A stretch of DNA of 63,285 nucleotides, filler included, from Collodictyon triciliatum (lineage: Eukaryota): the NCBI GenBank assembly GCA_043381765.1. It is 6 parts of 6 records of this genome, joined end to end, with 100 filler letters (N's around TTAATTAATTAA, not from the genome) between each part and the next. Parts side by side here need not be neighbours in the genome. Positions count along the whole stretch, not along the records: positions 1 to 13,321 come from JBHJMP010002008.1; 5 more parts are not named here. One strand, 5' to 3'. The notes below the pieces were generated by a model. The model saw nothing but the letters and a program-made list of their open reading frames with translations, was not told the DNA's origin and made no database searches. Numbering within the stretch: position 1 is the stretch's first letter; the number at the start of each line of letters is the position of its first letter. A program made the translations under genes and the position numbers. This document shows positions 1-40,193 of the stretch, one piece after another.

Positions 1-75
1 CGCAAATCTTACGGGCCTGTCACAGAGCGTGTCTTTGGAACACCTATTAAGAATCTTTCACAGGCTATTTATTAA
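1..75 (+). CDS. 3' end of an upstream viral ORF (partial, RKSYGPVTERVFGTPIKNLSQAIY*)
   Basis: Frame 1 is open from base 1 to TAA at 73-75 and converges on the 904-aa ORF through a palindrome. Identity unknown. Confidence 0.45.
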   Translation, partial: RKSYGPVTERVFGTPIKNLSQAIY

Positions 76-104
76 ACAATTGTTATTATAATAAAAATTG
101 TTTA
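73..104. terminator. AT-rich palindromic hairpin between convergent viral genes
   Basis: TAAACAATT-G-TTATT-AT-AATAA-A-AATTGTTTA is a 32-bp palindrome with one mismatch. Its two ends are the two stop codons. Confidence 0.6.
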
Positions 105-2816
105 TGTGTCGGCATTTGCTAATATGGTTAAAGGCGTACCTCCAGTAGGAACGACCCATTGTCTAGCACGCAAAAACCAGCGATTTATATTTTGTGGAAC
201 AGTATTGTTTGATGTTCTCATATTAATTGCCGTAAACCAAGTTCCTTCCGCTACCTCGTAATTTGTACTATGTACTGCCATCATATTCTGATTTGATGCG
301 CCTATTACAAACGCACTCGTAGTAGTGAATCTGATTCGTTTATATCCCGTGCCGTTTTTACTTGGCAGATTCCACACAATTACTTCGATTTCTAAACCAG
401 TAGGTACAGCAGTAGGATCAGGGAAAATTATATTAGTAGTCAAACTTCCCGATGGTTGTTTGGTTAAAATAAGTGTTTTAGGACCGTTTCGGTCTACATT
501 ATGCGTTTCAAAGTCTACAACGAGAAAATCAGATAATGGCGCCTTAAACAATCGAAGCGAGTTTTGAATTTCGGTATCGTCTTGGGTAAATCTAGTAGCT
601 AAGTTCCCATTAAGAACCATACTCACACTAGAGGCTGCTCCTGAGTTTACCCCTTGTATTCTAGCATTACTACCTGATGTACCAAAATCTATATTTGTAT
701 TAACTACGAACGGTTCGGACACAGTTGTCGCTGCCAGCCCATCAATCCATACATACCAGATTCCTTGAAGTACGCCTGCAGTTGTAGTTATGTGATGCCA
801 CACACAAGTGTATACCCCACCCTCAATTAATGGATATGTGCTGCTACCTGTGACAACAGTTTTTGTTGAATTATGCATAACGTGAATTGCGTGTCCCGTT
901 ACGCCACCAGTCCACATAGCTAACGTGCCTGTACTGGCTGCATCTTTATAGGGAATAATAACGTGAGTTTGGCCAGTTAATGTTGCTCCTAAATTAGGTA
1001 AATCAAATGTACTTGGTACATTGTCAGATATCAACGCTCGTATCATCATAGGGCTTGTTGCACCTATAAGAATACTAGTATGATTTCGAGACGCAATAGG
1101 ACATCTTACAGCTTTTTTCATTATAACTGCTTCTTCCATACTGGCTACACCTACACCAGACACATTGGTACAATCTATTATATTTAATCCATTGCAATGT
1201 ATACGTACATTGGAATTAGTGTCTTGAAATCGAATGCCTGAATTCGTATTTGATGTTGAATACAGTCCGGCGGTATTACCTATACCTGCTACGACACCAA
1301 CACCTCCCAGTGTACCGAGTCCAGTCACACTAAGAGCCCCTCCGACACTAACATCAGAGGGTAATGCACAAGCACTAATGGGATGCCCTGAGACTACATA
1401 CCACGCTCCGCTGCTAAATAAACACTCGTAAAACGTGCCAGGCAAAACAAAAAAGCCATTTGTTCCTAAGGGAGCACTGTTCCCATTTCCGGTAACTACA
1501 TTTCTACTCCCTCCACTATACATATACATATTTACATTGTTAAAAGGTCTAAACGACAATGTTGCCACCGTTTGACTACGAAACGGTATTATTCTGTAAA
1601 ACGTGCCTTCTGCTAAAGCCGGGAATCTAAGTATTGTATTAATCTCTCCCATTTCCATTCTGACATTTGATTTCGTAGATTGTGAAAGTGTAAAATCGCT
1701 AACTCCTCCCGTTCCTCCTGTGCTCGTGAATACATCAAATGGATAAACGACGTCGGGGATCGTGCACCGCCCGGTGACACTCAGGTCGCCTGTTATGCTC
1801 ATACCTGAATTGTTAATTTCAACCCTCTGAACTCTTGCCGGCAAATTAGCTCCCGTGTTTGTTGCCCCGAGAAATCTAAAGTACGTGTTACCGTGCTCTG
1901 TTGCAAATATTTCATTCGTCCCAGTGCCTCCGACCAATTTGCTCATCACCGTTTCAGTAGCTGGCCAGTTTGTGCCATTACCCAACCTGTAAGTTGCTGA
2001 GGTTCCTGAAGTAGAATCACTAAATGACGACTGTATATACCCCGTTGCGCCCCCTGTACTTCCAACAAACTGTATATTAGAACTTGGAATACCTACGTTG
2101 TTTCGAATACTTGCACCTCCGCTCAATCTAATATTACCACCTACTACAGAGCACACTTGTGATCCATTAGCTACAAAACCGATCCCACTATCAGTACCGA
2201 CCACTGTTCTTATTAAACCAGAGTTTGTAGAATTCTCGAAAGAATAAGAACAGGCTCCAGTAGAGCCATCAGGAACTGTTAGCCCGTCATTTCTTATTGT
2301 AACTCTTTCCACTCCATCCGTTCCAAAACGAATAACATTGTCTGAGCCCCAAATACCTGTTCGGCTCTCAACTGGTGTGTCTGTGTTGTCTCCAAATAAT
2401 AAAGTTGGTTCTGCTGCTGTACCAACTCGTGTAAGATTTAGTGTGCTAGGGCAACTCACAAAATCACCTGTTACTCCACTAACTAATAAATTGGGCGACC
2501 AAGCTGAATTATTTGCTTCACCATACAACACTCGACCCTGATTTGCTGTTCCACTACTGGGCACCTGTCTGACATTTGCCCAAGCACCATCACCTCGTAA
2601 CCAAGAGCTATTGCTATTATTATATGCCAGCCAGCTAGCTACTGTTCCGTCTGTTCGAAGAATGCCAGCGACTGTTTGCGGAGGCAGCTCAGCCGGTGTC
2701 GTCGTCTCCTGCAACCACTGTAAATATACCCCACTTGAATCTACTTTTAATACTTTACCACTATCTTGATTGCTAAATTCTGGTAACTCCTTTTCTTCTG
2801 TTATGAAAAACCCCAT
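102..2816 (-). CDS. Virion fibre / tail-fibre-like protein (904 aa)
   Basis: Rich in G/T/S/N beta-type sequence. N-terminal repeats LP..(G)xVL...W; phage-fibre-like repeats (GTAAEPTLLFGDNTDT..TGIW..IRFGTDGVERVTI; GSTGACSYSFENSTNSGL); three related distal modules. Lies next to the penton-like gene. Confidence 0.7.
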   Translation of the reverse strand: MGFFITEEKELPEFSNQDSGKVLKVDSSGVYLQWLQETTTPAELPPQTVAGILRTDGTVASWLAYNNSNSSWLRGDGAWANVRQVPSSGTANQGRVLYGEANNSAWSPNLLVSGVTGDFVSCPSTLNLTRVGTAAEPTLLFGDNTDTPVESRTGIWGSDNVIRFGTDGVERVTIRNDGLTVPDGSTGACSYSFENSTNSGLIRTVVGTDSGIGFVANGSQVCSVVGGNIRLSGGASIRNNVGIPSSNIQFVGSTGGATGYIQSSFSDSTSGTSATYRLGNGTNWPATETVMSKLVGGTGTNEIFATEHGNTYFRFLGATNTGANLPARVQRVEINNSGMSITGDLSVTGRCTIPDVVYPFDVFTSTGGTGGVSDFTLSQSTKSNVRMEMGEINTILRFPALAEGTFYRIIPFRSQTVATLSFRPFNNVNMYMYSGGSRNVVTGNGNSAPLGTNGFFVLPGTFYECLFSSGAWYVVSGHPISACALPSDVSVGGALSVTGLGTLGGVGVVAGIGNTAGLYSTSNTNSGIRFQDTNSNVRIHCNGLNIIDCTNVSGVGVASMEEAVIMKKAVRCPIASRNHTSILIGATSPMMIRALISDNVPSTFDLPNLGATLTGQTHVIIPYKDAASTGTLAMWTGGVTGHAIHVMHNSTKTVVTGSSTYPLIEGGVYTCVWHHITTTAGVLQGIWYVWIDGLAATTVSEPFVVNTNIDFGTSGSNARIQGVNSGAASSVSMVLNGNLATRFTQDDTEIQNSLRLFKAPLSDFLVVDFETHNVDRNGPKTLILTKQPSGSLTTNIIFPDPTAVPTGLEIEVIVWNLPSKNGTGYKRIRFTTTSAFVIGASNQNMMAVHSTNYEVAEGTWFTAINMRTSNNTVPQNINRWFLRARQWVVPTGGTPLTILANADT

Positions 2817-2832
2817 TACACTTGTAGAGAAT

Positions 2833-3600
2833 TTATTCTTCTGGAATTACACGCAGTGTGAAGCTGTAGTCTTGTAACAAATTAATTGTCCGTCCCAGTC
2901 TATCTACCAATCGGAAATTCCAGCTGAACGGGATATAACTACAGTCCATCAGATTCTCTAATATATTGTCATTGACCTCGTAATAGCTCGAATATCTCGC
3001 CCCAAGACTCAGCGGTATTTTTGCGATGATGCCATTGCCGCCAATATTTGATGCAAAGCTCGAACTCTGAATGTTCGGGCTGACCAAATACACATAATCA
3101 AAAGGTTTGACATTGACTGTATTCTGAAGCTCGACAAACGACGTGTTGAATGTGAGATTCGCTGTCAGTCCTATGATCTCTCTACATGTACTAGAATTCA
3201 CAAACAGTTGGATTGAAATATCTGGTCCCTCTCCTTTGATTGCTATTTTTTGCTTGCCGCTAAGATATGAAACAGAAACAGCTAATGCGGCTGACTGGGA
3301 CGCCGTAACTGCGTTCATCTTTGTTCTAATGTCACCGACGATTTCTTGGATTGTTAACAAGCCAGTTTCAAGTGACACATTGTATGAAACAGGGCTGTTT
3401 GCTCCGACCTGGCAAAGGAAGGATAACTCGTTGTTGGCGGATGTGACATTGTGCACAGCATTCGGGATTTGGATAGACTCTAGTCCGATTTTTGCTTTGC
3501 TCGACACATATCTGTTTTGCGTCGTTGCGAAATTAAAGTCTGCGATACTTCCGCTTTCTCGGTTGGCCGAATCGACGTAAATGTAAAACGCTTTGTCCAT
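2833..3600 (-). CDS. Putative minor capsid (penton) protein, PLV/virophage type (255 aa)
   Basis: N-terminal YIYVDSANR..G...DF.F, central IPN..HNV...NN, IIAKIP, and C-terminal FRLVDRLGRTINL.QDYSFTL match the pattern of single-jelly-roll minor capsid proteins. Confidence 0.72.
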   Translation of the reverse strand: MDKAFYIYVDSANRESGSIADFNFATTQNRYVSSKAKIGLESIQIPNAVHNVTSANNELSFLCQVGANSPVSYNVSLETGLLTIQEIVGDIRTKMNAVTASQSAALAVSVSYLSGKQKIAIKGEGPDISIQLFVNSSTCREIIGLTANLTFNTSFVELQNTVNVKPFDYVYLVSPNIQSSSFASNIGGNGIIAKIPLSLGARYSSYYEVNDNILENLMDCSYIPFSWNFRLVDRLGRTINLLQDYSFTLRVIPEE

Positions 3601-3662
3601 ATCTTAAACCCAGAAAAAGTTTTCTGTGTTTACCGTGCCAGAAATTATTTCTCTGCGATTGT

Positions 3663-3992
3663 ATGAGTGACCCCGAAAATATAGATACCATTGAGAAACC
3701 AAAAAAAAAACGCATAGTATCAGAAAAGCAAAGAGCCCACCTTGCCAAAATTCAACCCAAAGCTACAGCAGCTAAAAAGAAAAACAAGGAAATCGTTCAG
3801 ACGGTCAAAAAATACGAGGCCGTCAAAAAACCCATTCACGACTACACTGCAATGCAGCACGACTTGTCTTTAATTAAACAATACCTCACTAAGGAAGAGG
3901 CCCGCAAAATCGAGAAGCGCAGAATTAAGGAAACAGTAGACAAAGCTCAAGTCAGAGAACTTTCTTACGACAATGATCTTTTATTTCGTTAG
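3663..3992 (+). CDS. Small basic viral protein (109 aa)
   Basis: Lys-rich ORF with KPKKKRIVSEKQRAHL, tightly packed upstream of the ATPase. Confidence 0.7.
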   Translation: MSDPENIDTIEKPKKKRIVSEKQRAHLAKIQPKATAAKKKNKEIVQTVKKYEAVKKPIHDYTAMQHDLSLIKQYLTKEEARKIEKRRIKETVDKAQVRELSYDNDLLFR

Positions 3993-3999
3993 TTAATAT

Positions 4000-4722
4000 A
4001 TGGAGAGCAAGAAAGTAAGTAACGTTGAGGTCGCTCCGCTAAAGACCGTCAAAAAAAACAAGCGCGAAGTCATTCTAGAAATATTGCCGGACGCAAAGAG
4101 TGATAGACCCTTCTGGATGCTCATCTCTGCAAAAGTCGCTAGCGGCAAAACAACCTTGATCAGCAATTTGCTGGGCAAACGAGAAATGTATAATCAAATA
4201 TTCGATAAGGTATATTTTTGCTCCAGTAACATTTCCGGAGGAGAAATTCATGACTCGAGCTACGAGGGTGTCAAATTTCACAAAAGCCGCATGTATGAGG
4301 ACTTTAACGAGGACATCTTTGAACAAGTCACAAAAGACATCACCAGTGACCCCGAATTCAAAGACAACGCTTACCTTCTTGTGGTAGACGACCTGGGTAC
4401 TTCATTTGAAAGACCTAGTAAGACCCTACTCAAGAAAATGTTGCAGCACCGGCATTTCAGACTCTCTATGATAGTAGTGGGGCACGCCATTCGTTTATTC
4501 AACCCCAAGGTACGGCAAAACGCCTCCCACCTCGTTGCTTTCTATACCGACAACAAACACGAACGGGAAGCCCTTAACGAAATGACTAATCTCGATCAGA
4601 AACTCTTTGATGAAGTCTTTGATTTTGCCACCGCCGACCCCTATTGTTTCCTATACGTCAACTTGATGGTTCCTCGCAGAATCAAAGCTTATAAAAACTT
4701 CTCGGAAGAAATCCTATTTTAA
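4000..4722 (+). CDS. A32/FtsK-HerA-family DNA packaging ATPase (240 aa)
   Basis: Walker A-like AKVASGKTT, Walker B LLVVDD, RHFRLSMIVVGH and KVRQNASH (A32 motifs), C-terminal PYCFLYVN. Confidence 0.88.
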   Translation: MESKKVSNVEVAPLKTVKKNKREVILEILPDAKSDRPFWMLISAKVASGKTTLISNLLGKREMYNQIFDKVYFCSSNISGGEIHDSSYEGVKFHKSRMYEDFNEDIFEQVTKDITSDPEFKDNAYLLVVDDLGTSFERPSKTLLKKMLQHRHFRLSMIVVGHAIRLFNPKVRQNASHLVAFYTDNKHEREALNEMTNLDQKLFDEVFDFATADPYCFLYVNLMVPRRIKAYKNFSEEILF

Positions 4723-4738
4723 ATATCTAGTCTTAGAT

Positions 4739-4906
4739 ATGCTACGACTATATACCACGGACGGAGAACTGCTCTTTTCTACTTTTGAGGAACCGAAAGA
4801 ATACTTTGATAAGCTGGAGGCATCGAGAAAGAAGGGCAGAAAGAAGAAGGGGCCCGCAAAATTGTACGGTATCATTGAAGGGCCGGTCAAGGTCATTTTT
4901 GATTAA
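4739..4906 (+). CDS. Small viral protein (55 aa; below the ORF-track cutoff)
   Basis: ATG 4739 to TAA 4906: MLRLYTTDGELLFSTFEEPKEYFDKLEASRKKGRKKKGPAKLYGIIEGPVKVIFD. Co-oriented 16 bp after the ATPase, with a GATATG start context like other viral ORFs. Confidence 0.6.
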   Translation: MLRLYTTDGELLFSTFEEPKEYFDKLEASRKKGRKKKGPAKLYGIIEGPVKVIFD

Positions 4907-4944
4907 CGGGAACCCTGCACAACCCCTGTTCAACCCCTGCTCAT

Positions 4945-5196
4945 CCTCCAAGAGAAAATGGGCATTCGGGTATTCCCTTACTTCTTCTAGTCTCATAACT
5001 TTATGTTTATCCTATGTTTATCCTTACTTGTTCAACCCCCAAAATATAGAAAGTCGATAGAAAAATATACCCTACCCTACCCAATTTCATCTAGGGTAGG
5101 GTCAAATTAAAAGTAGTTTTGGAAGGGCCCTAAAAGGGGGGTTGAGCAGTAGGTAAAACACATAGATAGGACCTCATGCCCATTTTCTTCTGGAGG
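4945..5196. repeat. Nested imperfect inverted repeats (candidate origin/cruciform)
   Basis: Arms 4945-4965/5176-5196 (19/21), 5025-5040/5137-5151 (imperfect), and 5069-5079/5092-5102 (perfect 11 bp, ACCCTACCCTA/TAGGGTAGGGT). Confidence 0.75.
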
Positions 5197-5234
5197 TGCG
5201 CAAAATCTAGAGTTAAAGACATTTTGTCATAAGA

Positions 5235-7541
5235 ATGTATCTTAGTACTGCAATGGAACTAGTTGAGCACATCGACGCCAAGAAAGTGGAGCTTCTCTTG
5301 AAGCAACCAAGTGAAAAGATCGATAAGCCGACCAAAGGCATATTAGGCGTTATACGTCAGAAAAGTCTTTCGGCGCCAGACGACGACCTGTATCGTTTGA
5401 CTGTGAAATATGAGCACACCGAGTACTTGCAAAAGATTGGAATTGGAAGGGTGTATCATAAATCGGTTTCCGTGTTAAAGCTCCCAAAACCCGTGCGTCA
5501 ATTCTTGTTATGTGACACACACATTAACCTGGACATCAAGAATTGCCATTATAGCTTAAGCTTGGATTTGGCCAGGAAGTGGAATCTGCCCCACACTGCG
5601 ATAAAGACATATGTCGAGGACCGTGAGCAGATCATCCAGAAAACGATGAAGGATTTCAACATGTCACACAAAGAAGCCAAGAAGCTGTATTTGAGCATCG
5701 CATATGGCAACAAATGGGTTCAGGGTGGCGAGTTTACTAAGACTCTGGGAGAAGAGATGCTAGTATTGGCCGGTAACGTATACGAAAAGTGTAAGGAGTG
5801 GCACAATGTAAAGTTTAAAAAAGACGCCAACGCGCTATACGAACACGGCAATCGCATCTATAGCACGTTGAGTTACTACTTGCAGACAGAAGAATTAAAA
5901 GTGATGCAACTGGCCATCGATTTTTTGCGACAGAACAGTGTTCAAGTTGATGTCTATGTGTTTGACGGACTGCATGTCAACAAAAGTCAATACAGAACAG
6001 AACTGAATGTCAAGTTGTCCGAATACATACGCGAGCATACTGGGTACGCCCTGGAATTTGAGAGTAAAACTATTCAGTCGACTTTTGTGCCAATGCCTGA
6101 TAAAAAAGAAAAAGAATATGATGGCCTGTGTATCACAAAGTTTGCTCTTGAACACTTTATGATACTTGGAAAGTTGTATCATGAACATAAAGACAACACT
6201 CGCAAGGCCGACCCCATAGATAATCCAGGTCCTTACTGTGAGGAGTTTGGAGACAAGTACTGGAAACATGTACAGAAAAATTTACCATCCAACCGGCGCT
6301 ACAAGTATTTCGACTTTATGCCATACAACATGTTTACCAACTATTACGATCCCAAAGCTTACAATTATTTTAAAGGGTTCAAGTTCGAAGAGTATTTTCC
6401 AGAGTTAAATGCGATACAAAAAACTGACTGGTTGGGATACTGTAATCAAATTCGCAGCTCGGTGACAGCGGATGATTATGCTATCTGGAAACAGAGTATG
6501 AACTATAAGCAATTGTCCCAGTATCTGTGCGCTGGCAATCCTGCGTCACTGAAATATGTGATGCAGTATTTAGCCAAAATAATATTCAATCCGCATTATC
6601 GAATTGGCAAGATGATGATATTCCGAAACAACAAGGGAGGCACTGGTAAGACATCTTTTTTTCATAAGCTGTATATCCAGGGTGTTCTGGGCAAGCAATA
6701 CGGCGGCACACACTCATCTCTAAATGAGGTATTTGGTGAGAAGAACATGAATATGCAAAATAAGTTGTTGTTGATTCTGGAAGAGTCGGAAGTAGCGCAA
6801 ACAAAGGGTTTACAAGGGCAAATCAAGGAGGCCGTTGACCGGGATGAGACGCATCTACGCATGCTATATCACAACCCAAGCCCAGTAAAAAATACGTGCA
6901 ACTTTATACTCAACACAAACAAAGAAATTGGAATTGTGTTTGAAAAAGACAACATGAGACGATTCCCGGTGTTTGACGTACGAGAGCACCGACTTGACGA
7001 AGAAGAAATAGAGCAATTAACAAACGAAACAGGCGACCCCGACTTTGTCAAGGTTTTTGTTAAGGTCTTGTTAAATGAGTATGATGCGAAATTCAACTTT
7101 AACGTGTTTCCAAAAAGCGAGACATGCGAGACACTGGCAGAGAAATGTGCCGACCCTGTTGAACAGTTTATCAGGTTCATATTTGTCGAATGGAATGACT
7201 ATGCGGTGGACAGCTACGACCTCTTCTTCATAGGTAAGTGTAAGTGGCACAGTGGCGCTCCATTTGAACTTGCCATTGATCAAATATACGACATATACAA
7301 GCTGTTTAGCAACAAAAGATTGCCTAGTCGTAAAGTGCTTGAGTATAGGTCGTTTACTCACAGCGAACGATGGATAAGTTTTAAAACACAATACAAGGAC
7401 CATATAAAAATTAAACACGGCAAGTATGAGATTGATTACATGAAGGTCCGCAGTCTGATGACAGACGGAGCCAATTTACACGGGCACTTTTCTACTGATA
7501 CGATCGTCAGCAGCTGCAAGAGAGCACGCACAAAAGAATAA
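5235..7541 (+). CDS. PolA-like (TVpol) polymerase/primase fused to D5-like SF3 helicase (768 aa)
   Basis: N half: GRVY..S...LPKPVRQFL, motif A NLDIKNCH, motif B EAKKLYLSIAYG, motif C VYVFDG. C half: Walker A GGTGKT, Walker B LLILEESE, sensor NFILNTN. The true start may be the second Met at 5253. Confidence 0.82.
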   Translation: MYLSTAMELVEHIDAKKVELLLKQPSEKIDKPTKGILGVIRQKSLSAPDDDLYRLTVKYEHTEYLQKIGIGRVYHKSVSVLKLPKPVRQFLLCDTHINLDIKNCHYSLSLDLARKWNLPHTAIKTYVEDREQIIQKTMKDFNMSHKEAKKLYLSIAYGNKWVQGGEFTKTLGEEMLVLAGNVYEKCKEWHNVKFKKDANALYEHGNRIYSTLSYYLQTEELKVMQLAIDFLRQNSVQVDVYVFDGLHVNKSQYRTELNVKLSEYIREHTGYALEFESKTIQSTFVPMPDKKEKEYDGLCITKFALEHFMILGKLYHEHKDNTRKADPIDNPGPYCEEFGDKYWKHVQKNLPSNRRYKYFDFMPYNMFTNYYDPKAYNYFKGFKFEEYFPELNAIQKTDWLGYCNQIRSSVTADDYAIWKQSMNYKQLSQYLCAGNPASLKYVMQYLAKIIFNPHYRIGKMMIFRNNKGGTGKTSFFHKLYIQGVLGKQYGGTHSSLNEVFGEKNMNMQNKLLLILEESEVAQTKGLQGQIKEAVDRDETHLRMLYHNPSPVKNTCNFILNTNKEIGIVFEKDNMRRFPVFDVREHRLDEEEIEQLTNETGDPDFVKVFVKVLLNEYDAKFNFNVFPKSETCETLAEKCADPVEQFIRFIFVEWNDYAVDSYDLFFIGKCKWHSGAPFELAIDQIYDIYKLFSNKRLPSRKVLEYRSFTHSERWISFKTQYKDHIKIKHGKYEIDYMKVRSLMTDGANLHGHFSTDTIVSSCKRARTKE

Positions 7542-7554
7542 AGTGAAAGACATT

Positions 7555-8076
7555 TTATTCTTTGCATCTTATGAACTTACTGGACTGCATGCCTGTTGGC
7601 AATACTTCCATCATTTCAAAACCGCATGTAACAGGACTGGGGGTCGGTGTTGATTTGAGAGAGTAAGAAATTTTAGGGGGAGAGTCAGGAGGGGTCAGGG
7701 CTTTGCGAACACGTTCAGCGGCTTCACGGGGTGAACCGTCAGACGAACTAGATTTGATTGTCGATGCAGAGGCGCTTGAGTAATCGACAGCGGGGGTCAC
7801 AGCGTAATCAACCAAGGGCGTCATTGTATGCTGGACTCCGTCGGGGTCGACAAACACAAACTGTGAAGAAGACGCTTTCTTTTTCTCTTTTCTCTTCATG
7901 TAGCTTTTATGGGTGCTTTTACGTAAGCGCCTTGCTATTGCAACCATCTGTCGCACGCCGTCTAAGGGTTCTCCCCATTCGATGAAACACAGGTAGTTGA
8001 GTCTTGCTAGCTCTTCTCCGGTCAATGTGCGAGTTGTCATGTCGTCCTGTTCTTGTCTAGTTAACGTGCGTGCCAT
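7555..8076 (-). CDS. Hypothetical viral protein (173 aa from first ATG)
   Basis: ORF from ATG 8076 (MARTLTRQEQ...) with a basic patch and S/P-rich tail, packed between the helicase and integrase. Confidence 0.6.
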   Translation of the reverse strand: MARTLTRQEQDDMTTRTLTGEELARLNYLCFIEWGEPLDGVRQMVAIARRLRKSTHKSYMKRKEKKKASSSQFVFVDPDGVQHTMTPLVDYAVTPAVDYSSASASTIKSSSSDGSPREAAERVRKALTPPDSPPKISYSLKSTPTPSPVTCGFEMMEVLPTGMQSSKFIRCKE

Positions 8077-8166
8077 TGTGCGTGCTAATGCTTGTTTAGT
8101 TAACTTATGATTTTGAATAGTTTTTAAGCTGCGTTTTTTACACAAAAAAAAAGTATTGTAATTGTA

Positions 8167-9537
8167 ATGAGTAACCCAAGTACTAGTGACCAGTATAACG
8201 AGAAGCTACAGAAAAGGTTTAATGACCCAGGGCAAGTAAACAGCGTTGAAGCGATGTATCGCCACTTCAACAAGGAGATACCTCGCAGCTACATTGAGGC
8301 TTGGATGAAAAAGAATCCCTATCAGCAAATCAGCAAGCCAGCCTACAAAAGCAAGGACGTCACTTCCTTCAATGTCACTGATCCGTCGTACGCACAGATA
8401 GATTTGATATATACCAAGGGACTGTACCCAGAAGACCATGTTGGAGTGAAATACAATTATCTAATGACCTGCGTGGTGCTTTTAACACGCAAGGTGTTTC
8501 TGTACCCGCTGACCGACAAGACTCTGGCCGAAAGCAAAAAGGCTGTGCTTGAGTTCAAGAAAGATTACCCTGCGTTGAAAGTCATTCAAAGCGACAACGG
8601 CACAGAGTTCAAGTATGAAAAAAAATGGTTGCAAGACCACGGCCTCAAGCAAGTCAAGTCGAGTGCGTACAACCCTACGAGCCAGGCCTATGTGGAGCGC
8701 ATGAATTCTGTGGTAAAGAATAGTTTGTACAAGTACCACCAAAAGACAGGGGAAACCTTAACGAAAGAAGTGCTAGAGAAAACTGCAGACAGCATCAACG
8801 ATCAGCCGAACCGTGACACCGGGGCGATACATAACAATGCGGCTACGAAAGAAAATCTGACAAAGCTAATAGAAGCTAACCAGAAAAAATTAGACAAAGC
8901 CACCACATCAGTCAAAGACGACTTACTAGAGGTCGGGCAATTAGTGCGTGTGAACCTGAAGAAAACAAATTTGACAACGCAAGAGCGCAATAAATTCAAG
9001 ACCAATAAAAACTGGATCCCGAAATTCACTGTTGCGTTGTTTGAGATAGTAAGCCGCGAAGTCTCAAAGGACGGATTCAAAGCACCCACATATAAACTAA
9101 AGGCGCTGAAAGAAAGTGACTCGAATATATTGAAAGGGAAGAAATTTCTTCGCAGGGACCTGCAGCCTGTGGACAAGGACACAGACAAAGACTTTACGCC
9201 AAAGGTTGATTTGCTGAAGCGAGACGCTGCTAGTGTAAAAAAGAAGAGGGGGCCGTATTTGGCTTCGAACGTGCAGGATGCCCGCGCCGACTTTGATAAG
9301 AAAGTGTGGACAGCGGACACTAAAAATTTCACAAACCGCACTGGCAAGAATGCTCCGAGCAAGCCAGGGCGTCAAGCTGAGCTTGATAGGCTAGAACCAA
9401 AAGTCAAGGAAGCATATGAAGCGTTTGTTTCTAAGCACGGAGACAACCCTAAAATGACCACGCTTCAAACTAAAAACTTTAATAAGTTGAAAAGAATTTT
9501 GGGCGCTTTATTGCAGTTCAGCCTTCGGAAGAAGTAG
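8167..9537 (+). CDS. Retroviral-type (rve, DDE) integrase, Polinton/Maverick-like (456 aa)
   Basis: AQIDL (D), VIQSDNGTEF (D), AYVERMNSVVK (E). Polinton-like N-terminus (FNDPG..S...Y....I..W...NPYQQ) and C-terminal LEVGQLVRV. Confidence 0.93.
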   Translation: MSNPSTSDQYNEKLQKRFNDPGQVNSVEAMYRHFNKEIPRSYIEAWMKKNPYQQISKPAYKSKDVTSFNVTDPSYAQIDLIYTKGLYPEDHVGVKYNYLMTCVVLLTRKVFLYPLTDKTLAESKKAVLEFKKDYPALKVIQSDNGTEFKYEKKWLQDHGLKQVKSSAYNPTSQAYVERMNSVVKNSLYKYHQKTGETLTKEVLEKTADSINDQPNRDTGAIHNNAATKENLTKLIEANQKKLDKATTSVKDDLLEVGQLVRVNLKKTNLTTQERNKFKTNKNWIPKFTVALFEIVSREVSKDGFKAPTYKLKALKESDSNILKGKKFLRRDLQPVDKDTDKDFTPKVDLLKRDAASVKKKRGPYLASNVQDARADFDKKVWTADTKNFTNRTGKNAPSKPGRQAELDRLEPKVKEAYEAFVSKHGDNPKMTTLQTKNFNKLKRILGALLQFSLRKK

Positions 9538-9576
9538 CTGTAAGCAAACCGATAACCGTGGAGCGAATCAAAGCGA

Positions 9577-10161
9577 TCAAGCGTCGGAAGATGACCGTGG
9601 TTTCTTCGCAGGCCTCTTCTTAGATTTCTTTATCTCAGTACTGATCTCCTTGGCCAGGGCTACAAGTTCGTCTGGCTTTTTCTCTCTCTTCTGCGCTTCG
9701 TCCTTGTCTTCTTCTTGAAGCATCTTTTCAACCTTAGCTACAACCTTGCGTTTCTCTGCACGGGCAGGAGCATTCTCCATATGTTTTTTCAATCCTTTCT
9801 CTCGCTTGGCTTTGTTTGCTTCTTCGGACTGTCGGTAAATGTCGCCGATGTCCTTTGTGTTGTTTGTCCATATCTTGCCATAGTTTGTCATGCCCAAAAC
9901 TTTTCCGTCTTGGTCTTTCCAGAGAGCGTCTCCGACTTCATTCTGAATCAGAGACACAAACCCTTGGTTGACCTTGGCTGGGTATTCCTTGTCTTTGTAA
10001 GTGCGAGCTTTCATCTCGTACATAATGTAGTCACCTTTCTTGAGGTCACTGTATTGAACCTTTGTGTAATCTTTGTCGTCGGTAGGCAAGGCAGTCTTGG
10101 TCTTGGGTTTTTTCGCGTCATCTTCGCTGGGGGTTTTGCGGACATACTTACGGGGCGGCAT
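9577..10161 (-). CDS. Lys-rich hypothetical viral protein (194 aa from first plausible ATG)
   Basis: MPPRKYVRK... with a small beta-rich core (YSDLKKGDYIMYE) and basic termini. Confidence 0.7.
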   Translation of the reverse strand: MPPRKYVRKTPSEDDAKKPKTKTALPTDDKDYTKVQYSDLKKGDYIMYEMKARTYKDKEYPAKVNQGFVSLIQNEVGDALWKDQDGKVLGMTNYGKIWTNNTKDIGDIYRQSEEANKAKREKGLKKHMENAPARAEKRKVVAKVEKMLQEEDKDEAQKREKKPDELVALAKEISTEIKKSKKRPAKKPRSSSDA

Positions 10162-10251
10162 ATCAAATTGAAAGATAAGTTTTATACAAATCAAACGCAA
10201 AGGTTTTAAGTATGTAATTAACGTAGTACTAACTATATCAAATAGATTACA

Positions 10252-10497
10252 ATGAGCAGCCGTTCTTTCCATCGTATTCAAAATAAAGGATTCAGGCCGA
10301 TTGCCGGAATGTGCGTGACTGATTTGAACGTAGAGAACGTAATCGAACATCAGCATCCACAACTGCAAAACAAAGGTGCCGTGATAAAAGACGGAGACAA
10401 GGCTGCGCGTCGAGAATTGCTCAAGATAGCATTGGAAAAGAAGAAGATGGCAGAAGGGCAGAGACTGGTTGTCGCCGCGTCCAAGCTGAAGAAATAA
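10252..10497 (+). CDS. Small hypothetical viral protein (81 aa)
   Basis: Last ORF before the terminal repeats; divergent from 9577-10161. Confidence 0.55.
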   Translation: MSSRSFHRIQNKGFRPIAGMCVTDLNVENVIEHQHPQLQNKGAVIKDGDKAARRELLKIALEKKKMAEGQRLVVAASKLKK

Positions 10498-10515
10498 ACC
10501 GACAACACATACTAT

Positions 10516-10585
10516 ATATGGAAGGTGTAAGTTGATTAAGGGTGGAAGGCGGCTGCATATGGAAGGTATGCGTTAATTAAGGGTG
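10516..10585 (+). repeat. Two imperfect 29-bp direct repeats (period 41), subterminal
   Basis: ATATGGAAGGTGTAAGTTGATTAAGGGTG (10516) vs ATATGGAAGGTATGCGTTAATTAAGGGTG (10557). Confidence 0.8.
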
Positions 10586-10652
10586 TAATGTACTGTGGTC
10601 AAGGGCGGAAGACAGTATATAAAGGCCTAATTCGGCGGGTTGAGAAGAACGC

Positions 10653-10695
10653 TGTGGAAATTGAAACTCCATAATATATAGTTTCAATTTCCACA
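10653..10695. repeat. Perfect 16-bp inverted repeat at the putative element end
   Basis: TGTGGAAATTGAAACT (10653-10668), 11-nt loop, AGTTTCAATTTCCACA (10680-10695). Confidence 0.9.
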
Positions 10696-13321
10696 CAAAT
10701 ATCATTAAAATTGTATTTTATCCTTTGCTTGTCATATGTTTTATGATTTGATATGTACATAATTGGTTAATATTAAATCATATAACTCAACATCTGGAAT
10801 CCTTGAAGCACTGTGCCTTTGACCCACTCGAAAAGCCAAAAGACGAGCTAGTCTGTGACATGCACTTAACTTGCATCGCCGATAAGGCTCTATGCACGCT
10901 CATGAAATAGTCTGAAAAATAGCATTCGCAGTTTCAAACGGGAACATAATTGACTTGGTTAGGAAAATATATGTATTTATCTTTCACTCCAAAAAATGAC
11001 ACATCATTGAAATATCACCGCTTCAGAATATCTCCAGTGTTCTACGATATATTTTGAATCAATAAATAAGACAATAGGATGCCTCCGGAGGAAAGTTTGG
11101 CCTCGGATTGAATCCATGTCAGGGCCCTTGGTAGTTGCAGCCGTTTAGAGTTGTAATATTTCTCAACACTCTCGGATGCATAGTGATGAACCAAGAATCC
11201 AGCTCCCGTACCAAGCTGACCTTGACCCGAATTTGATGCGTTCATTGCGTTCAAACAAGATGCATACAACAACGGCGGACTGTAGAAAAATGCAAAAAAA
11301 AAACCCTTTCTTTGAATTGAACGAAGGATATAAAATTATTAAAAGTATTATTATTTGCAGTACACTGTTCTGTGTTTCATGAGCGAAAGGCATACATTTC
11401 ATCCTATGCAAAAATATTGTAAGGCTTGTTGATTTTGTTTGCACATTTTGTGTTCCTGGAAAATTTTGCTATTTTTTATTATTAAATTATATGTAAGAAA
11501 TTATAATATACACAACCTGTGTGGACGGTGTTCAACTCTTGCGCGTGTGTCACTTGCCCTCAATATAATAATTTTATTATTTTATATGAAATATATGTTA
11601 TTGTAATTTCTTCAAGATGCGGGCTTTGCGTGGCCTGTTCAACTTTGGTACTTTGAGCCTGTAAGGCACCGGCAGTGTTGTTCAACTATTAATGTAATAT
11701 TTTTTGTAAAATATTAAGTTGTTTTATATAAATGTATTGAAAGATTTTTAGCAAACGTGTTCATAAAGCTTCAGAGCGTGTAAGCACAGGATATTTATAG
11801 CTGTTGTTGCAGTAGAGAATGTTAAGGAATTTCGCATGACACTGTCCTTATTCTGTTTGTGAGGTCTCTATTTATCCACATCACTGGCACATTTGTGAGT
11901 GATGCGACTCCACATGCGGCTCCTCCATCTGTTCGCATACTTGTTAGCTACTGAAGCGAAAACAAACAAAAAAAATATGTAAAATTATATATGCACAAAT
12001 AATAATAAAAAAATTATGAATAATTCAAACTTGACTTAAACTTACTGGATTTGCATAAACACAAAGAGAAGTAAAACTGGTCAAGAAAGGTATTTATGGT
12101 GGTATCAAACAAGAATTATATAAAGAATAATTTTATCAAAACAAATATTCGAATAAGAAAAGCACTGAAAGGAGCAGTTTCAGATTATTTGCTTTTAAGA
12201 AACAGAAATACACACTCAAGCAAGGTGGAAATATCGTGAACATCAGTAAATGCTCTCTGCTCCTTTAGAAATGCAATTTTTTGAGGTATTACAGCGAATA
12301 ATAGCAAGTGTTTTCAATATATTCCTTAATGTGCAAGCAAATCGATAAGCTTGTGGTAATGCTTTGAAGGTTTTTTTATGATTTGCCAAACATCTTTTAT
12401 AGTAGATACAAAAATTTCGAAGACGATGTTTTTGTATATATGAGTTATGTTGCTTTTAATTGATTCAAGGTAGCAGTTTTTTTTATTTTTCCTTGGTTTC
12501 ATTTCAACTAATCACTAATAGAAAACAATGTCGAGCTGCTGCCTTCGCCTTTAGGACAAACACGAGATACGGATGAGACAGTGGAAAACTTGAACTTTAT
12601 GTATTTGGATTTTTTTGTTTAGATAAAATAAAATAAAAGATAGATAGAAAGAGATGAGTAGTAATGTAAGAAAAGATATACCGGTTGGTGAAATAGAAAG
12701 GCAGCAAGGTGTTTTTACACACAGACTTTTCTTCCTGAAGTGGGTTAAATCAAACATGGTCTTAAGATTGTAGGCACGGGCGCCAACATCTTATTCTGTT
12801 GTGAAAAAAAAAATTAAAAAAAAAAACTCCAACGCAGTTTCATATTGTGTTCGAGACTGACATAAGGGCGGATAAAATTGTCGGGTCGATAAAAGTACTC
12901 ACAAATCAGTTACCTTAAAAACAATTTCAAGGAATTTTATTACCTGTCTATTTCAGAGAGTTATTATATTATTCAACGCGAGTGTCATTTAAATAAAGAC
13001 TATGATATATAACAACAATAAGTGGTGCAGTTGAGCAAGGGGATTGAAAGGCAAATAACACAGGGATTTTTCTTATATTTGGTTATGTTGTGGTTGGTAC
13101 AATCTTACAAATATTCGAAATTATACCAGAAAAATATTCTGGAAGTTTAAGAAGTAATTTGTTTATGGTTATTTGTCGTGTGCAAGGTATTTCATTTGCG
13201 ATGATGTTTTGGTGGATTCCCTATTTATTTTTCTTTTGTTTACAGTTGTTATTTGTTACGATAACTATATCTAAAGTTTTCTCATTCCATTTTTATATAT
13301 ACGCTTGTACTTTATGAGATG

Positions 13322-13421
13322 NNNNNNNNNNNNNNNNNNNNNNNNNNNNNNNNNNNNNNNNNNNNTTAATTAATTAANNNNNNNNNNNNNNNNNNNNNNN
13401 NNNNNNNNNNNNNNNNNNNNN
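13322..13421. other. Synthetic contig linker
   Basis: N44-TTAATTAATTAA-N44 (six-frame stop spacer). Confidence 0.98.
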
Positions 13422-13632
13422 AAAAACAAAAAACAAAAAACAAAAAACAAAAAACAAAAAACAAAAAACAAAAAACAAAAAACAAAAAACAAAAAACAAA
13501 AAACAAAAAACAAAAAAACTAAAAAAAATAAAAAAAAAAAAACAGGCTTGCAATAAATTCAAGTTCACGGATTCTTTGATTGGGCTGGGCGGGTGATGCA
13601 GACCCGAGGGCAAATGCTTTATCAGAGCCTCT

Positions 13633-26530: not shown

Positions 26531-26719
26531 CCGTCGCAGCGCAGTCGGCTGTCCAGTACGATAGGGCGAAGCAAAGGACGGATTTCTGTTTTTTGTTTTT
26601 CTGTTTTTCTGTTTCTCTGTTTTTCTGTTTTTCTGTTTTTCTGTTTTTCTGTTTTTCTGTTTTTCTGTTTTTCTGTTTTTCTGTTTTTCTGTTTTTCTGT
26701 TTTTCTGTTTTTCTGTTTT

Positions 26720-26819
26720 NNNNNNNNNNNNNNNNNNNNNNNNNNNNNNNNNNNNNNNNNNNNTTAATTAATTAANNNNNNNNNNNNNNNNNNNNNNNNN
26801 NNNNNNNNNNNNNNNNNNN
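26720..26819. other. Synthetic contig linker, flanked by (TTTTTCTG)n and (TTTTTG)n repeats
   Basis: N44-TTAATTAATTAA-N44. Confidence 0.98.
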
Positions 26820-27188
26820 TTTTTGTTTTTGTTTTTGTTTTTGTTTTTGTTTTTGTTTTTGTTTTTGTTTTTGTTTTTGTTTTTGTTTTTGTTTTTGTTT
26901 TTGTTTTTGTTTTTGCTTGGCCTAAAGAAGCTCCTCACCCTTGCAACATACCGCTTAGACCCACTACAAATACAAGCCCGGTTCTCGTTTTCTCCTACCA
27001 TCGTTTCATACACGTTCTCTCTCAGCTGACTTCATCCCTGTGCGCATTAGTCCAATTTGAGCACCTAGCCGCTTTTGTCACTGTCTGGCTTTTTTTTTTT
27101 TTTTGTCGCAGAGCCACGCTAGCTGTGGCAGCTGTGCACTTTTTGCATTCTAATACTCACAGGGTTTCACTCAGATCTCCCTACTGCT

Positions 27189-40093: not shown

Positions 40094-40193
40094 NNNNNNN
40101 NNNNNNNNNNNNNNNNNNNNNNNNNNNNNNNNNNNNNTTAATTAATTAANNNNNNNNNNNNNNNNNNNNNNNNNNNNNNNNNNNNNNNNNNNN
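40094..40193. other. Synthetic contig linker, flanked by (CAAAAGA)n and (TTTG)n repeats
   Basis: N44-TTAATTAATTAA-N44. Confidence 0.98.

What the first reader, a model, noticed from the sequence alone, without database searches (positions are those of the whole stretch)
1..10697. Apparently intact integrated Polinton-like virus pairing an rve integrase with a PolA-like polymerase-helicase instead of pPolB
Seen: uninterrupted ORFs for a fibre, penton-like protein, A32 ATPase, TVpol-SF3 helicase and DDE integrase, joined to host-like DNA on the same contig. Established: Polintons and Mavirus couple rve integrase with protein-primed PolB, while Sputnik-type virophages couple TVpol-helicase with a tyrosine recombinase. 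Inference: this is a mosaic element, possibly recently integrated and reactivatable, in a protist genome. The major capsid protein and any protease are not in the window, so the lineage is unresolved.
Basis: partly seen in the sequence, partly recalled or inferred. Interest (0 to 1): 0.82.

Follow-up and report, generated by a model that had tools for sequence, protein, structure and literature searches.

The report
Partial endogenous polinton-like virus, PolA-helicase plus integrase

Summary
The ORFs are real and mostly correctly named. Confirmed here are an A32 packaging ATPase, a single-jelly-roll penton, a family-A (TVpol) polymerase fused to an SF3 helicase, and a DDE (rve) integrase. There is also a mosaic 904-aa fibre-like protein. 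The element ends in a roughly 200-nt non-coding terminus with iterons and a 43-nt hairpin palindrome at 10653-10695.

Three corrections apply:
- The window is a concatenation of separate pieces joined by N/TTAATTAATTAA linkers. Only 10.7-13.3 kb is physically joined to the element.
- The piece starts at or within tens of bases of base 1. The capsid gene, left end and TSD are therefore simply not on this contig. Relatives sit on contigs of about 17 kb, so roughly 6.5 kb is probably missing.
- The rve + PolA-helicase pairing is not a one-off mosaic. A 55%-identical metagenomic relative carries the same pairing. Recent surveys already report non-pPolB replicases with RVE integrases and terminal palindromes.

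The genes are under purifying selection against a 90%-identical metagenomic relative (dN/dS 0.03-0.14). The junction at about 10.7 kb is not independently verified.

Verdict: new member of a known kind, of modest interest.

The parts
102..2816 (-). 904-aa fibre-like (host-recognition) protein, rich in G, S, T and N
   Evidence: It is an uninterrupted ORF. It has no Pfam or PHROG family. Atlas feature hits point to unnamed tailed-phage clusters and one 'phage tail fibre C-terminal' cluster, which are leads only. 18 homologues were found. They share residues 1-62 at 75-78% identity, while the central and C-terminal modules are shuffled.
2833..3600 (-). Penton (minor capsid protein), single jelly roll
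   Evidence: The AF2 model has pLDDT 65.2. By VIA, all 7 chains at Z>=8 are capsid chains of double-jelly-roll viruses. They include PBCV-1 (Z 13.6 and 13.5), a Sputnik chain (10.2) and the mavirus penton protein 6g41 (10.0). BFVD hits include TVS1 proteins, adomavirus LO5 and 'putative minor capsid protein' entries. Pfam DUF5901 is sub-threshold.
3663..3992 (+). 109-aa lysine-rich protein of unknown function, conserved in relatives
   Evidence: It is 93% identical in L001 and 52% in L002 by tblastn. dN/dS is 0.047. No credible family was found.
4000..4722 (+). A32/FtsK-type genome-packaging ATPase
   Evidence: Pfam Pox_A32 scores 34.5 bits, above the 22.8 cut-off. PHROG hits terminase large subunit. 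Walker A is SGKTT at residue 48 and Walker B is VVDD at residue 128. dN/dS is 0.032.
4748..4996 (-). 82-aa ORF in the 512-nt spacer; coding status doubtful
   Evidence: Only residues 2-49 are conserved in L001. The spacer varies among relatives (joint 5064>5136 and contig breaks at 4950 and 5176). A 21-nt inverted repeat lies at 4945-4965 / 5176-5196.
5235..6524 (+). N-terminal family-A (TVpol) polymerase domain of the 768-aa replicase
   Evidence: In the 25-sequence alignment the invariant residues are G71, R72, D100, I101, N103, C104, H105, K149, D244 and G245. A PolA motif-B-like R..AK......YG is also present. The AF2 model has pLDDT 74.8. All 47 Foldseek PDB rows listed are family-A polymerases, with Klenow at E 1.6e-6. 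Top named BFVD hits are the Zamilon 'DNA replication protein' (E 1.2e-18) and the Qinghai Lake virophage helicase/primase/polymerase.
6525..7541 (+). C-terminal superfamily-3 (D5/P4-type) helicase domain of the replicase
   Evidence: Pfam DUF5906 scores 47.1 and VapE-like 29.7, both above their cut-offs. PHROG hits DNA primase families. PDB sequence hits are to primase chains 6k9e and 6k9c. Walker A is GGTGKTS at 468, Walker B is ILEESE at 514 and motif C is LNTNKE at 559.
7555..8076 (-). 173-aa protein of unknown function
   Evidence: It is an ORF with no family. Only its C-terminal 28 residues are visible at the end of L001.
8167..9537 (+). rve-type DDE integrase
   Evidence: Pfam rve scores 27.9, below the 32.6 cut-off. 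PHROG hits transposase families. phmmer aligns residues 96-189 to PFV integrase with SDxG and VERxN matched. The inferred triad is D79, D143 and E177. It is 30% identical (E 3e-33) to the L002 integrase, which passes Pfam rve at 42.4 bits.
9577..10356 (-). Basic protein of unknown function (259-aa ORF; the conserved part suggests a start at M66, i.e. 9577-10161)
   Evidence: Residues 100-195 match an L002 ORF at 32% identity. No family was found, and there was no Atlas hit.
10252..10497 (+). 81-aa ORF next to the terminus; coding status unknown
   Evidence: It is an ORF. A 252-nt contig of run X7 covers 10242-10493.
10498..10695 (.). Non-coding terminal region: probable right terminal (inverted) repeat with iterons and a terminal hairpin palindrome
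   Evidence: There is a direct repeat at 10516-10547 / 10557-10588. The motif AAGGGYGKAA occurs three times, only here in the window, against 0.54 expected. The palindrome at 10653-10695 folds as a DNA hairpin at -15.1 kcal/mol, z -8.7, and 0 of 200 shuffles fold as well. Contigs of other runs switch context at 10513 (X1) and 10487 (X7), and one ends its match at 10721 (X4).
10696..13321 (.). AT-rich, ORF-poor flank on the same piece: presumed host DNA
   Evidence: GC is 0.33 against 0.43 in the element. The longest stop-to-stop frame is 101 aa. Tetranucleotide r is 0.90 to the other pieces. The median for 17 host chunks of 2.6 kb is 0.906, and element chunks give 0.50-0.85. Contigs of X2, X4 and X7 cover 10739-13213.
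13322..13421 (.). Artificial linker (44 N + TTAATTAATTAA + 44 N) that ends the element's piece
   Evidence: Identical linkers lie at 26720, 40094, 53475 and 61300.

Best explanation
Window 1-10695 is the right-hand two thirds or so of a polinton-like virus (PLV) genome. It belongs to a lineage that also occurs in freshwater metagenomes. Here it is joined at its terminus to 2.6 kb of host-like eukaryotic DNA, most likely as an integrated provirus.

Shown:
- A morphogenetic set consisting of a penton, an A32 packaging ATPase and a modular fibre-like protein.
- A PolA(TVpol)-SF3 helicase replicase.
- A DDE (rve) integrase with an intact D,D,E triad.
- A non-coding terminus with iterons and a 43-nt hairpin palindrome.
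- Purifying selection on the genes.

Inferred:
- The integrase inserted the linear genome by its termini into the host chromosome.
- Replication uses the PolA-helicase rather than protein priming, possibly primed from the terminal hairpin.
- The capsid genes allow virion formation, perhaps on co-infection by a giant virus.
- The major capsid gene, the left terminal repeat and about 6.5 kb lie on another contig, because the assembly broke just past the fibre gene.
For: Gene identities:
- ATPase above the Pfam cut-off.
- Penton fold matched to solved penton and vertex proteins; the 7 chains at Z>=8 are all capsid chains.
- PolA fold: all 47 PDB rows listed are family-A polymerases.
- Virophage replicases are the best named viral matches.
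- SF3 helicase above the Pfam cut-offs.
- Integrase aligned to PFV integrase, with a homologue passing the Pfam cut-off.

Lineage:
- 18 helicase homologues were found, 11 of them at 48-95% identity.
- L001 is 90% identical in DNA over window 2831-7693.
- L002 keeps o109, ATPase, replicase, the o259-like gene and an rve integrase.
- A single 5,337-nt contig of freshwater run X1 covers 5176-10474 with 269 differences.

Functionality: dN/dS is 0.032-0.143 for four genes against L001.

Terminus: palindrome and iterons. Context switches occur in independent contigs at 10487-10513, and one match ends at 10721.

Flank: host-like composition, no long ORFs, and its own contigs in X2, X4 and X7 from 10739 onwards.

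Expected full size: clusters holding homologues of the helicase, penton and fibre have longest contigs of 17175, 17173, 16905, 17215 and 16409 nt.

Literature, passages read: PolA-S3H is widespread in PLVs (PMC4642659, PMC12220804, PMC11161782). Terminal palindromes are associated with non-pPolB replicases and RVE integrases (preprint 10.64898/2026.07.28.741278).
Against: - No major capsid protein is visible, so assignment to PLVs rather than virophages or polintons rests on the penton and on gene content.
- The penton model is only moderately confident (pLDDT 65.2).
- The window's integrase and penton both fall below their Pfam cut-offs.
- 'Fibre' has no direct family or fold evidence.
- The left end is missing, so TIR and TSD, the formal proof of integration, cannot be shown.
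- The junction lies exactly at a palindrome, a place where assemblers and amplification can create chimeras.
- The linked flank is only 2.6 kb and carries no recognisable host gene.
- The contig lengths of about 17 kb are those of clusters' longest contigs. They were not inspected and may not be complete genomes.
Confidence: 0.75

Rival explanations
1. The element is the end of a free (non-integrated) PLV genome that the assembly joined falsely to unrelated host DNA at the terminal palindrome.
For: The join sits within a few bases of a perfect-stem hairpin palindrome. The source is a fragmented assembly of pieces of about 13 kb. Close relatives are assembled as separate contigs in freshwater metagenomes. 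A contig of X4 leaves the window's sequence at 10721 and goes on for 255 unlike letters.
Against: The element encodes an intact DDE integrase conserved in its relatives. Integrated PLVs with exactly this layout (terminal palindrome next to host DNA) are described in passages of preprint 10.64898/2026.07.28.741278. The X4 loose end is equally what a related copy at another insertion site would give. Run X7, labelled as a single organism, holds pieces of both the element's right part and the flank at similar likeness.
Confidence: 0.17
2. It is a virophage (virophage-type capsid) rather than a PLV, i.e. a Sputnik-like replicase module on a mavirus-like integrating genome.
For: The replicase's nearest named structural relatives are virophage proteins from Zamilon and Qinghai Lake virophage. 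A distant relative (24% identity) sits in L045, a contig with Sputnik-type MCP and V18/19 penton Pfam hits. The penton model also matches a Sputnik capsid chain and the mavirus penton at Z of about 10.
Against: The best penton matches are PBCV-1 chains (Z 13.5-13.6) together with PLV (TVS1), adomavirus and giant-virus minor capsid proteins. The only Pfam penton signal is DUF5901, not the virophage V18-19 family. No cysteine protease is present in the visible 10.7 kb. PolA-S3H is equally common in PLVs (PMC4642659 and PMC12220804, passages).
Confidence: 0.15
3. It is an ordinary Polinton/Maverick whose pPolB (and protease and MCP) lie in the unseen left part; the PolA-helicase is an additional replicase.
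For: About 6.5 kb is unseen if the full genome is about 17 kb. Elements with two replicases have been reported (preprint 10.64898/2026.07.28.741278, passage).
Against: 6.5 kb must already hold the MCP and other conserved genes. Replicase types were reported as mutually exclusive in Tetraselmis PLVs (PMC9356565, passage). None of the 8 element ORFs scanned hits a PolB family.
Confidence: 0.06
4. It is a truncated, dead fragment of a PLV (a partial insertion) with no left half anywhere in the genome.
For: Only part of the element is seen. Partial insertions are common in protist genomes (PMC10120064 and the Halocafeteria preprint, passages).
Against: All ORFs are open and dN/dS is 0.03-0.14. The piece begins about 100 nt past the fibre stop, and its length (13321) fits the series of neighbouring piece lengths (13298, 13274, 13281). 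This points to an assembly break rather than a biological truncation (inference).
Confidence: 0.1

Closest known systems
PgVV/Gezel-14T-type and PLV-YSL1/RED1-type polinton-like viruses
   Same: They share the TVpol(PolA)-S3H fusion replicase, the A32 ATPase, the penton and a long fibre-like protein as the largest ORF, with genomes of about 17-20 kb (passages of PMC4642659 and preprint 10.1101/2022.07.28.501842). The replicase fold and motifs were tested here.
   Different: Those viruses carry an OLV11-like tyrosine recombinase or no integrase, whereas this element carries an rve DDE integrase. The MCP could not be compared.
Endogenous PLV subtype 4 and virophage subtypes 1, 2, 5, 6 of Halocafeteria seosinensis (preprint 10.64898/2026.07.28.741278)
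   Same: They are integrated elements that combine non-pPolB replicases (D5 primase-helicase, PolA-S3H) with RVE integrases. They carry palindromes at the extremities of the terminal repeats next to host DNA. The window has a 43-nt palindrome at its terminus.
   Different: No sequence comparison was possible, because only passages were read and supplements are closed. The host and habitat differ (halophile there, relatives in freshwater runs here). The window's left end and TSD are unseen.
Polintons/Mavericks and mavirus
   Same: They share the rve integrase, the A32 ATPase, the penton and an integrated lifestyle with terminal repeats. The penton model matches the mavirus penton at Z 10.0.
   Different: No pPolB was found among the 8 element ORFs scanned, and the replicase is PolA-S3H. 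No protease is seen in the visible part.
Sputnik/Zamilon virophages
   Same: The replicase has the same domain fusion, and the Zamilon protein is the best named structural match (E 1.2e-18).
   Different: Per passages of PMC12220804, Sputnik-like virophages use a tyrosine recombinase. The penton's best matches are not the virophage family.
Tlr1 element of Tetrahymena
   Same: It is the precedent named in PMC11161782 (passage) for a PLV-type element with RVE integrase but no canonical pPolB.
   Different: The Tlr1 replicase is a pPolB-derived palm domain fused to an SF1 helicase, not PolA-S3H.

Membership tests
TVpol (PolA)-S3H fusion replicases of virophages and PLVs | N-terminal domain with the family-A DNA polymerase fold | tested here: met
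   The AF2 model has pLDDT 74.8, above 90 over most of residues 10-290. All 47 PDB rows listed are family-A polymerases at E 1.6e-6 to 2.6e-5.
TVpol (PolA)-S3H fusion replicases of virophages and PLVs | Conserved catalytic motifs: acidic motif A, R..AK...YG motif B and acidic motif C | tested here: met
   D100 (DIxNCH), K149 within R..AK......YG, and D244-G245 are invariant in 25 of 25 aligned sequences. The assignment of these to motifs A, B and C is my reading, recalled from PolA enzymology.
TVpol (PolA)-S3H fusion replicases of virophages and PLVs | C-terminal superfamily-3 helicase in the same polypeptide | tested here: met
   Pfam DUF5906 and VapE-like are above their cut-offs at residues 437-594. 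Walker A, Walker B and motif C were located.
TVpol (PolA)-S3H fusion replicases of virophages and PLVs | Relatedness to the virophage proteins that define the family | tested here: met
   BFVD matches the Zamilon DNA replication protein at E 1.2e-18 and the Qinghai Lake virophage protein at 2.5e-13. A tblastn relative lies in virophage contig L045.
rve (retroviral-type DDE) integrases | Catalytic core with a D, D, E triad | tested here: met
   The second D and the E align to PFV integrase (SDxG and VERxN). The triad is D79, D143 and E177. The first D is assigned from the QID/QMD match with L002, which is an inference.
rve (retroviral-type DDE) integrases | Pfam rve gathering score | tested here: not met
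   The window protein scores 27.9 bits against a cut-off of 32.6. Its 30%-identical homologue in L002 scores 42.4. Membership therefore rests on homology plus the triad.
Polinton-like viruses (PLV) | [quoted passage not shown] | not testable with these tools
   No MCP lies in 1-10695. The left part is not on this piece. Full-length relatives could not be fetched.
Polinton-like viruses (PLV) | Single-jelly-roll penton (mCP) | tested here: met
Polinton-like viruses (PLV) | A32/FtsK-type packaging ATPase | tested here: met
   (34.5 bits against 22.8).
Polintons/Mavericks | [quoted passage not shown] | tested here: inconclusive
   0 of 8 element ORFs hit a PolB family, and the replicase present is PolA-S3H. 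The unseen left part could still hold one.
Polintons/Mavericks | rve integrase | tested here: met
Polintons/Mavericks | Terminal inverted repeats flanked by 5-6-bp target-site duplications | not testable with these tools
   The left end is absent. Only indirect signs of a repeat of about 200 nt were seen, namely context switches at 10487-10513 in contigs of X1 and X7.
Virophages (Sputnik/mavirus-like) | Virophage-type MCP, V18/19-type penton and Ulp1-like protease | tested here: inconclusive
   The penton gives no V18-19 Pfam hit, but its fold matches a Sputnik chain and the mavirus penton at Z of about 10. The MCP and protease are not visible.

The most novel reading that the evidence does not exclude
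The PolA-S3H replicase, this divergent rve integrase and the hairpin-forming terminal palindrome may form one co-inherited replication-integration module. It would belong to a widespread freshwater PLV lineage with genomes of about 17 kb. In this reading the linear genome is replicated by hairpin (self-)priming rather than protein priming, and the same termini are then used by the DDE integrase. That would be a mechanistically distinct way of being a 'polinton', and this window holds an integrated, selectively maintained copy.
Probability: 0.3. Interest if true: 0.55.

Novelty: new member of a known kind. Interest (0 to 1): 0.3.

Why it matters
The finding adds an integrated, or at least host-joined, example of the less documented combination of a PolA-helicase replicase with a retroviral-type integrase. 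Its terminal hairpin fits a recently proposed alternative replication model for such elements. The lineage is well represented in freshwater metagenomes and shows a strongly mosaic fibre gene, so it could serve as a tractable case for host-range evolution in small protist viruses.

It does not change the picture of polinton, PLV and virophage evolution. Free exchange of replication and integration modules is already established.

Tried and rejected
- **Own genome:** none is held.
- **Rfam:** 0 matches in the window.
- **Getting the missing left part or a full-length relative:**
  - Viral contigs with the single helicase gave nothing.
  - Viral contigs with alignment A1 gave 5 loci, all at 29% identity or less.
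  - Viral contigs with the penton alignment gave 13 pattern matches and 0 relatives.
  - Genome contigs gave 104 pattern matches and 0 relatives.
  - Metagenome contigs gave 41 loci, but the close ones are only 2.8-6.2 kb.
  - The 'phages' collection matched only the helicase domain, to phage primases: 33 records, 0 covering 80% of the query.
- **Sequencing runs:** no listed run holds half of the words, and no RNA holder is listed.
- **Reads laid:**
  - No listed contig bridges 10600-10739, so the junction is neither confirmed nor refuted.
  - Run X1 showed no cover of 10657-13300 or of 1-1332. As contig data this is no evidence of absence.
  - The joints in X7 (9996>10073, 11688>11801) lack canonical intron ends, and I did not read them as splicing.
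- **Fibre:** self-BLAST found no internal repeats, so I dropped my impression of three repeated domains.
- **Promoters:** there is no shared upstream motif among 10 ORFs, and AAAATTGA does not occur in 1-10700. Giant-virus dependence therefore has no support from promoters.
- **Atlas:** no usable hit for the o259 protein.
- **Tyrannomonas regina as host:** rejected on composition. Its host GC is 51.7% with PLVs at 35% (PMC12747079, passage), the reverse of this window.
- **Paper PMC11426020:** not held.
- **Supplements:** supplementary tables that list gene content per element, for example those cited in PMC12220804 and in the Halocafeteria preprint, are closed. I could not see whether an explicit PolA-S3H + rve-INT element is tabulated there.
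Full report
**What is in the sequence**

Under the standard code, the first 10.7 kb holds densely packed, uninterrupted ORFs on both strands:
- 904 aa at 102-2816(-)
- 255 aa at 2833-3600(-)
- 109 aa at 3663-3992(+)
- 240 aa at 4000-4722(+)
- 768 aa at 5235-7541(+)
- 173 aa at 7555-8076(-)
- 456 aa at 8167-9537(+)
- 259 aa at 9577-10356(-)
- 81 aa at 10252-10497(+)

GC is 0.40-0.46 up to about 10 kb and falls to 0.31-0.36 in 11-14 kb.

**Gene identities**

*ATPase.* The 240-aa protein is an A32-type packaging ATPase. Pfam Pox_A32 scores 34.5 bits against a cut-off of 22.8, and Walker A and B were located.

*Replicase, helicase half.* The C-terminal half of the 768-aa protein is a D5/P4-type SF3 helicase. 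DUF5906 scores 47.1 and VapE-like 29.7, both above their cut-offs. PHROG primase families also hit.

*Replicase, polymerase half.*
- I aligned residues 1-430 with 24 homologues down to 20% identity. The invariant residues are G71, R72, D100, I101, N103, C104, H105, K149, D244 and G245. The consensus also reads R..AK......YG, like PolA motif B.
- The AlphaFold model has pLDDT 74.8.
- Foldseek against the PDB returned only family-A polymerases in all 47 rows listed: Klenow, Taq, Bst, T7 and the apicoplast polymerase, at E about 1e-6 to 1e-5.
- In BFVD the best named matches are the Zamilon virophage 'DNA replication protein' (E 1.2e-18) and the Qinghai Lake virophage helicase/primase/polymerase.

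*Penton.*
- The 255-aa protein gave only a sub-threshold DUF5901 hit.
- Its model has pLDDT 65.2 and was built from 11 sequences.
- By VIA, all 7 chains at Z>=8 are capsid chains of double-jelly-roll viruses. They are two PBCV-1 chains (13.6 and 13.5), a Sputnik chain (10.2), EhV-201 (10.1), the mavirus penton protein (10.0), a fowl adenovirus chain (8.5) and an SGIV chain (8.3).
- In BFVD it matches TVS1 proteins, adomavirus LO5 and several 'putative minor capsid proteins'.

*Integrase.*
- The 456-aa protein is below the Pfam rve cut-off (27.9 against 32.6).
- It aligns to PFV integrase over residues 96-189 with the SDxG and VERxN motifs matched. This gives a triad of D79, D143 and E177.
- It is 30% identical (E 3e-33) to an integrase in relative L002. 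That protein passes rve at 42.4 bits.

*Fibre-like protein.*
- The 904-aa protein has no family.
- Its composition is T, G, S, V and N rich.
- Atlas leads point to tailed-phage clusters, including a tail-fibre C-terminal cluster at a score of 0.90.
- Its homologues are mosaics. Residues 1-62 are kept at 75-78% identity in three otherwise diverged proteins, and the central and C-terminal blocks recombine freely.

This pattern fits a capsid-anchored receptor-binding fibre, but the name remains an inference.

**The window is not one contig**

N runs revealed five identical 100-nt linkers (44 N, TTAATTAATTAA, 44 N) at 13322, 26720, 40094, 53475 and 61300. The window is therefore a chain of separate pieces of 13321, 13298, 13274, 13281, 7725 and at least 1886 nt.

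The eukaryotic genes I found all lie on other pieces. They are an R2R3 Myb, a GidA/MTO1 exon, an actin-like exon and a NACHT-TPR protein.

Only 10696-13321 is physically joined to the element. That flank has these properties:
- No stop-to-stop frame is longer than 101 aa.
- GC is 0.33.
- Its tetranucleotide profile correlates at r = 0.90 with the other pieces. The median for 17 host chunks of the same size is 0.906, and the four element chunks give 0.50-0.85.

The flank is thus host-like by composition but carries no recognisable host gene.

The neighbouring pieces decrease in steps of about 20 nt. I infer from this that the first piece, at 13321 nt, starts at or within tens of bases of window base 1. 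The element is therefore cut by an assembly break 100 nt beyond the fibre stop, and there is probably nothing 'left of base 1' on this contig.

**The right end**

After the last ORF comes a non-coding stretch at 10498-10695 with these features:
- A 32-nt direct repeat at 10516-10547 / 10557-10588.
- Three copies of AAGGGYGKAA, found nowhere else in the window, against 0.54 expected.
- A palindrome at 10653-10695 that folds as a DNA hairpin at -15.1 kcal/mol, z -8.7, with 0 of 200 shuffles folding as well.

When contigs of four public runs were laid on 1-13300, three results bore on the terminus:
- A 669-nt contig of X1 matched only 10513-10599 and then continued with unlike sequence.
- A contig of X7 changed context at 10487.
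- A contig of X4 matched up to 10721 and then ran on for 255 unlike letters.

I read these as signs that about 10.49-10.72 kb is a repeated terminal unit found in other contexts, such as the other end of the genome or other insertion sites. This would make it the right terminal inverted repeat. That reading is an inference.

**Relatives**
- The replicase has 18 homologues at E<=0.001 among 7,999 candidates scored, 11 of them at 48-95% identity.
- Metagenome contig L001 (4,807 nt) is 90% identical in DNA to window 2831-7693.
- One 5,337-nt contig of freshwater run X1 covers 5176-10474 with 269 differences.
- L002 has 55% replicase identity and also carries the o109 homologue, the ATPase, an o259-like gene and an rve integrase. 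Its integrase/o259 pair is inverted relative to the window.

The rve + PolA-helicase pairing is thus a conserved property of a lineage, not a recent accident.

Against L001 the four comparable genes give dN/dS of 0.096 (penton), 0.047 (o109), 0.032 (ATPase) and 0.143 (replicase). This shows purifying selection since the two copies diverged. dS is very uneven, at 0.18 for the replicase against 0.80 for the ATPase. This suggests recombination between modules within the lineage.

Clusters of helicase, penton and fibre homologues have longest contigs of 17175, 17173, 16905, 17215 and 16409 nt. I could not fetch these contigs. If they are complete genomes, about 6.5 kb of the window's element is missing, which is enough for the major capsid protein.

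More distant relatives of the replicase sit in marine contigs next to an A32 ATPase. One sits in a virophage contig with Sputnik-type capsid genes (L045).

**How it most likely works**

Shown: a virion module, a PolA-helicase replicase, a DDE integrase with an intact triad, a structured terminus, and selection on the genes.

Inferred:
- The integrase joins the genome ends to host DNA.
- The PolA-S3H replicates the excised or incoming linear genome without a terminal protein, possibly from the terminal hairpin.
- The ATPase packages the genome into a capsid whose vertices carry the penton and the variable fibre.

Dependence on a giant virus is possible but unsupported. I found no shared promoter motif.

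**Comparison with what is known** (passages read, not whole papers)
[quoted passage not shown] It is called widespread in cryptophyte PLVs (PMC12220804).
- The review-level picture is that PLVs 'mostly lack' pPolB and RVE-INT, with Tlr1 as the named exception (PMC11161782).
- In Rhodomonas cluster C1, TVpol-S3H goes with a tyrosine recombinase, and only 2 of 298 elements have rve-INT (PMC12220804).
However, large surveys describe endogenous elements with 'pPolB or primase-helicase' and 'tyrosine recombinase or rve' in various combinations (PMC10120064, PMC7805220).
- T. regina PLVs combine a primase-helicase with an rve-type integrase (PMC12747079).
- A 2026 preprint on Halocafeteria reports terminal palindromes next to the TSDs. 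[quoted passage not shown]
- Another 2026 preprint shows that replicase classes are shuffled across capsid lineages (10.64898/2026.10.13.758929).

The window's element fits that description closely. I could not read supplementary tables, so I cannot say whether an explicit PolA-S3H + rve-INT element is tabulated there.

**Verdict**

This is a new member of a known kind. The junction with host DNA and the identity of the capsid lineage remain open.

Noticed in passing
window 13322-13421, 26720-26819, 40094-40193, 53475-53574, 61300-61399: Five identical artificial linkers (44 N + TTAATTAATTAA + 44 N) show that the record is a concatenation of separate pieces of 13321, 13298, 13274, 13281, 7725 and at least 1886 nt. 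Linkage between pieces must not be assumed.
   Followed up: yes
window piece ends, e.g. 13422-13540, 26700-26719, 26820-26900, 40060-40093, 40194-40300, 53440-53474, 53575-53600: Most pieces begin or end in short A/C- or G/T-rich microsatellites such as (AAAAAC)n, (TTTG)n and (CAAAAGA)n. The assembly apparently broke at simple repeats.
   Followed up: no
window 48799-52627 (-): A 952-aa intronless ORF has NACHT/AAA and many TPR repeats (NPHP3-like). Directly downstream of it lies a 288-aa frame with a near-threshold DUF4062 match. Together they may be one STAND/NLR-like gene of the eukaryote.
   Followed up: partly
window 32000-35000 and 39000-40000: Sharp GC islands (0.53-0.66 and 0.58) stand in an otherwise 0.31-0.44 GC background. 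They coincide with an R2R3 Myb gene and a GidA/MTO1 exon.
   Followed up: no
window 2831-7693 vs L001: Synonymous divergence differs more than four-fold between neighbouring genes (replicase dS 0.18, penton 0.51, o109 0.66, ATPase 0.80). This suggests recent recombination of the replicase module within the lineage.
   Followed up: partly
window 8167-10356 vs L002 4221-6037: The integrase/o259 gene pair is inverted as a block relative to the replicase in the 55%-identical relative L002.
   Followed up: partly
window 4723-5234: A 512-nt spacer upstream of the replicase holds a 21-nt inverted repeat (4945-4965 / 5176-5196, 90% complementary). It is a variable spot in relatives: X1 contigs break at 4950 and 5176, and an X4 contig skips 5064>5136.
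   Followed up: no
window 10616-10624 and L002 6143-6151: Both the window's terminus and the end of L002 carry short iterated repeats followed by a GTATATAAA (TATA-like) motif. This may be a conserved terminal promoter or binding site.
   Followed up: no
L042 6223-12420 (-): An IMG/VR contig with a distant replicase relative encodes a 2,065-aa ORF with no Pfam family.
   Followed up: no
window 9151-10493 and 10991-11919 in run X7: A small run labelled as one coded organism, guessed to be RNA, holds contigs 90-95% alike to both the element's right end and the flank. A related host may carry a related element.
   Followed up: no
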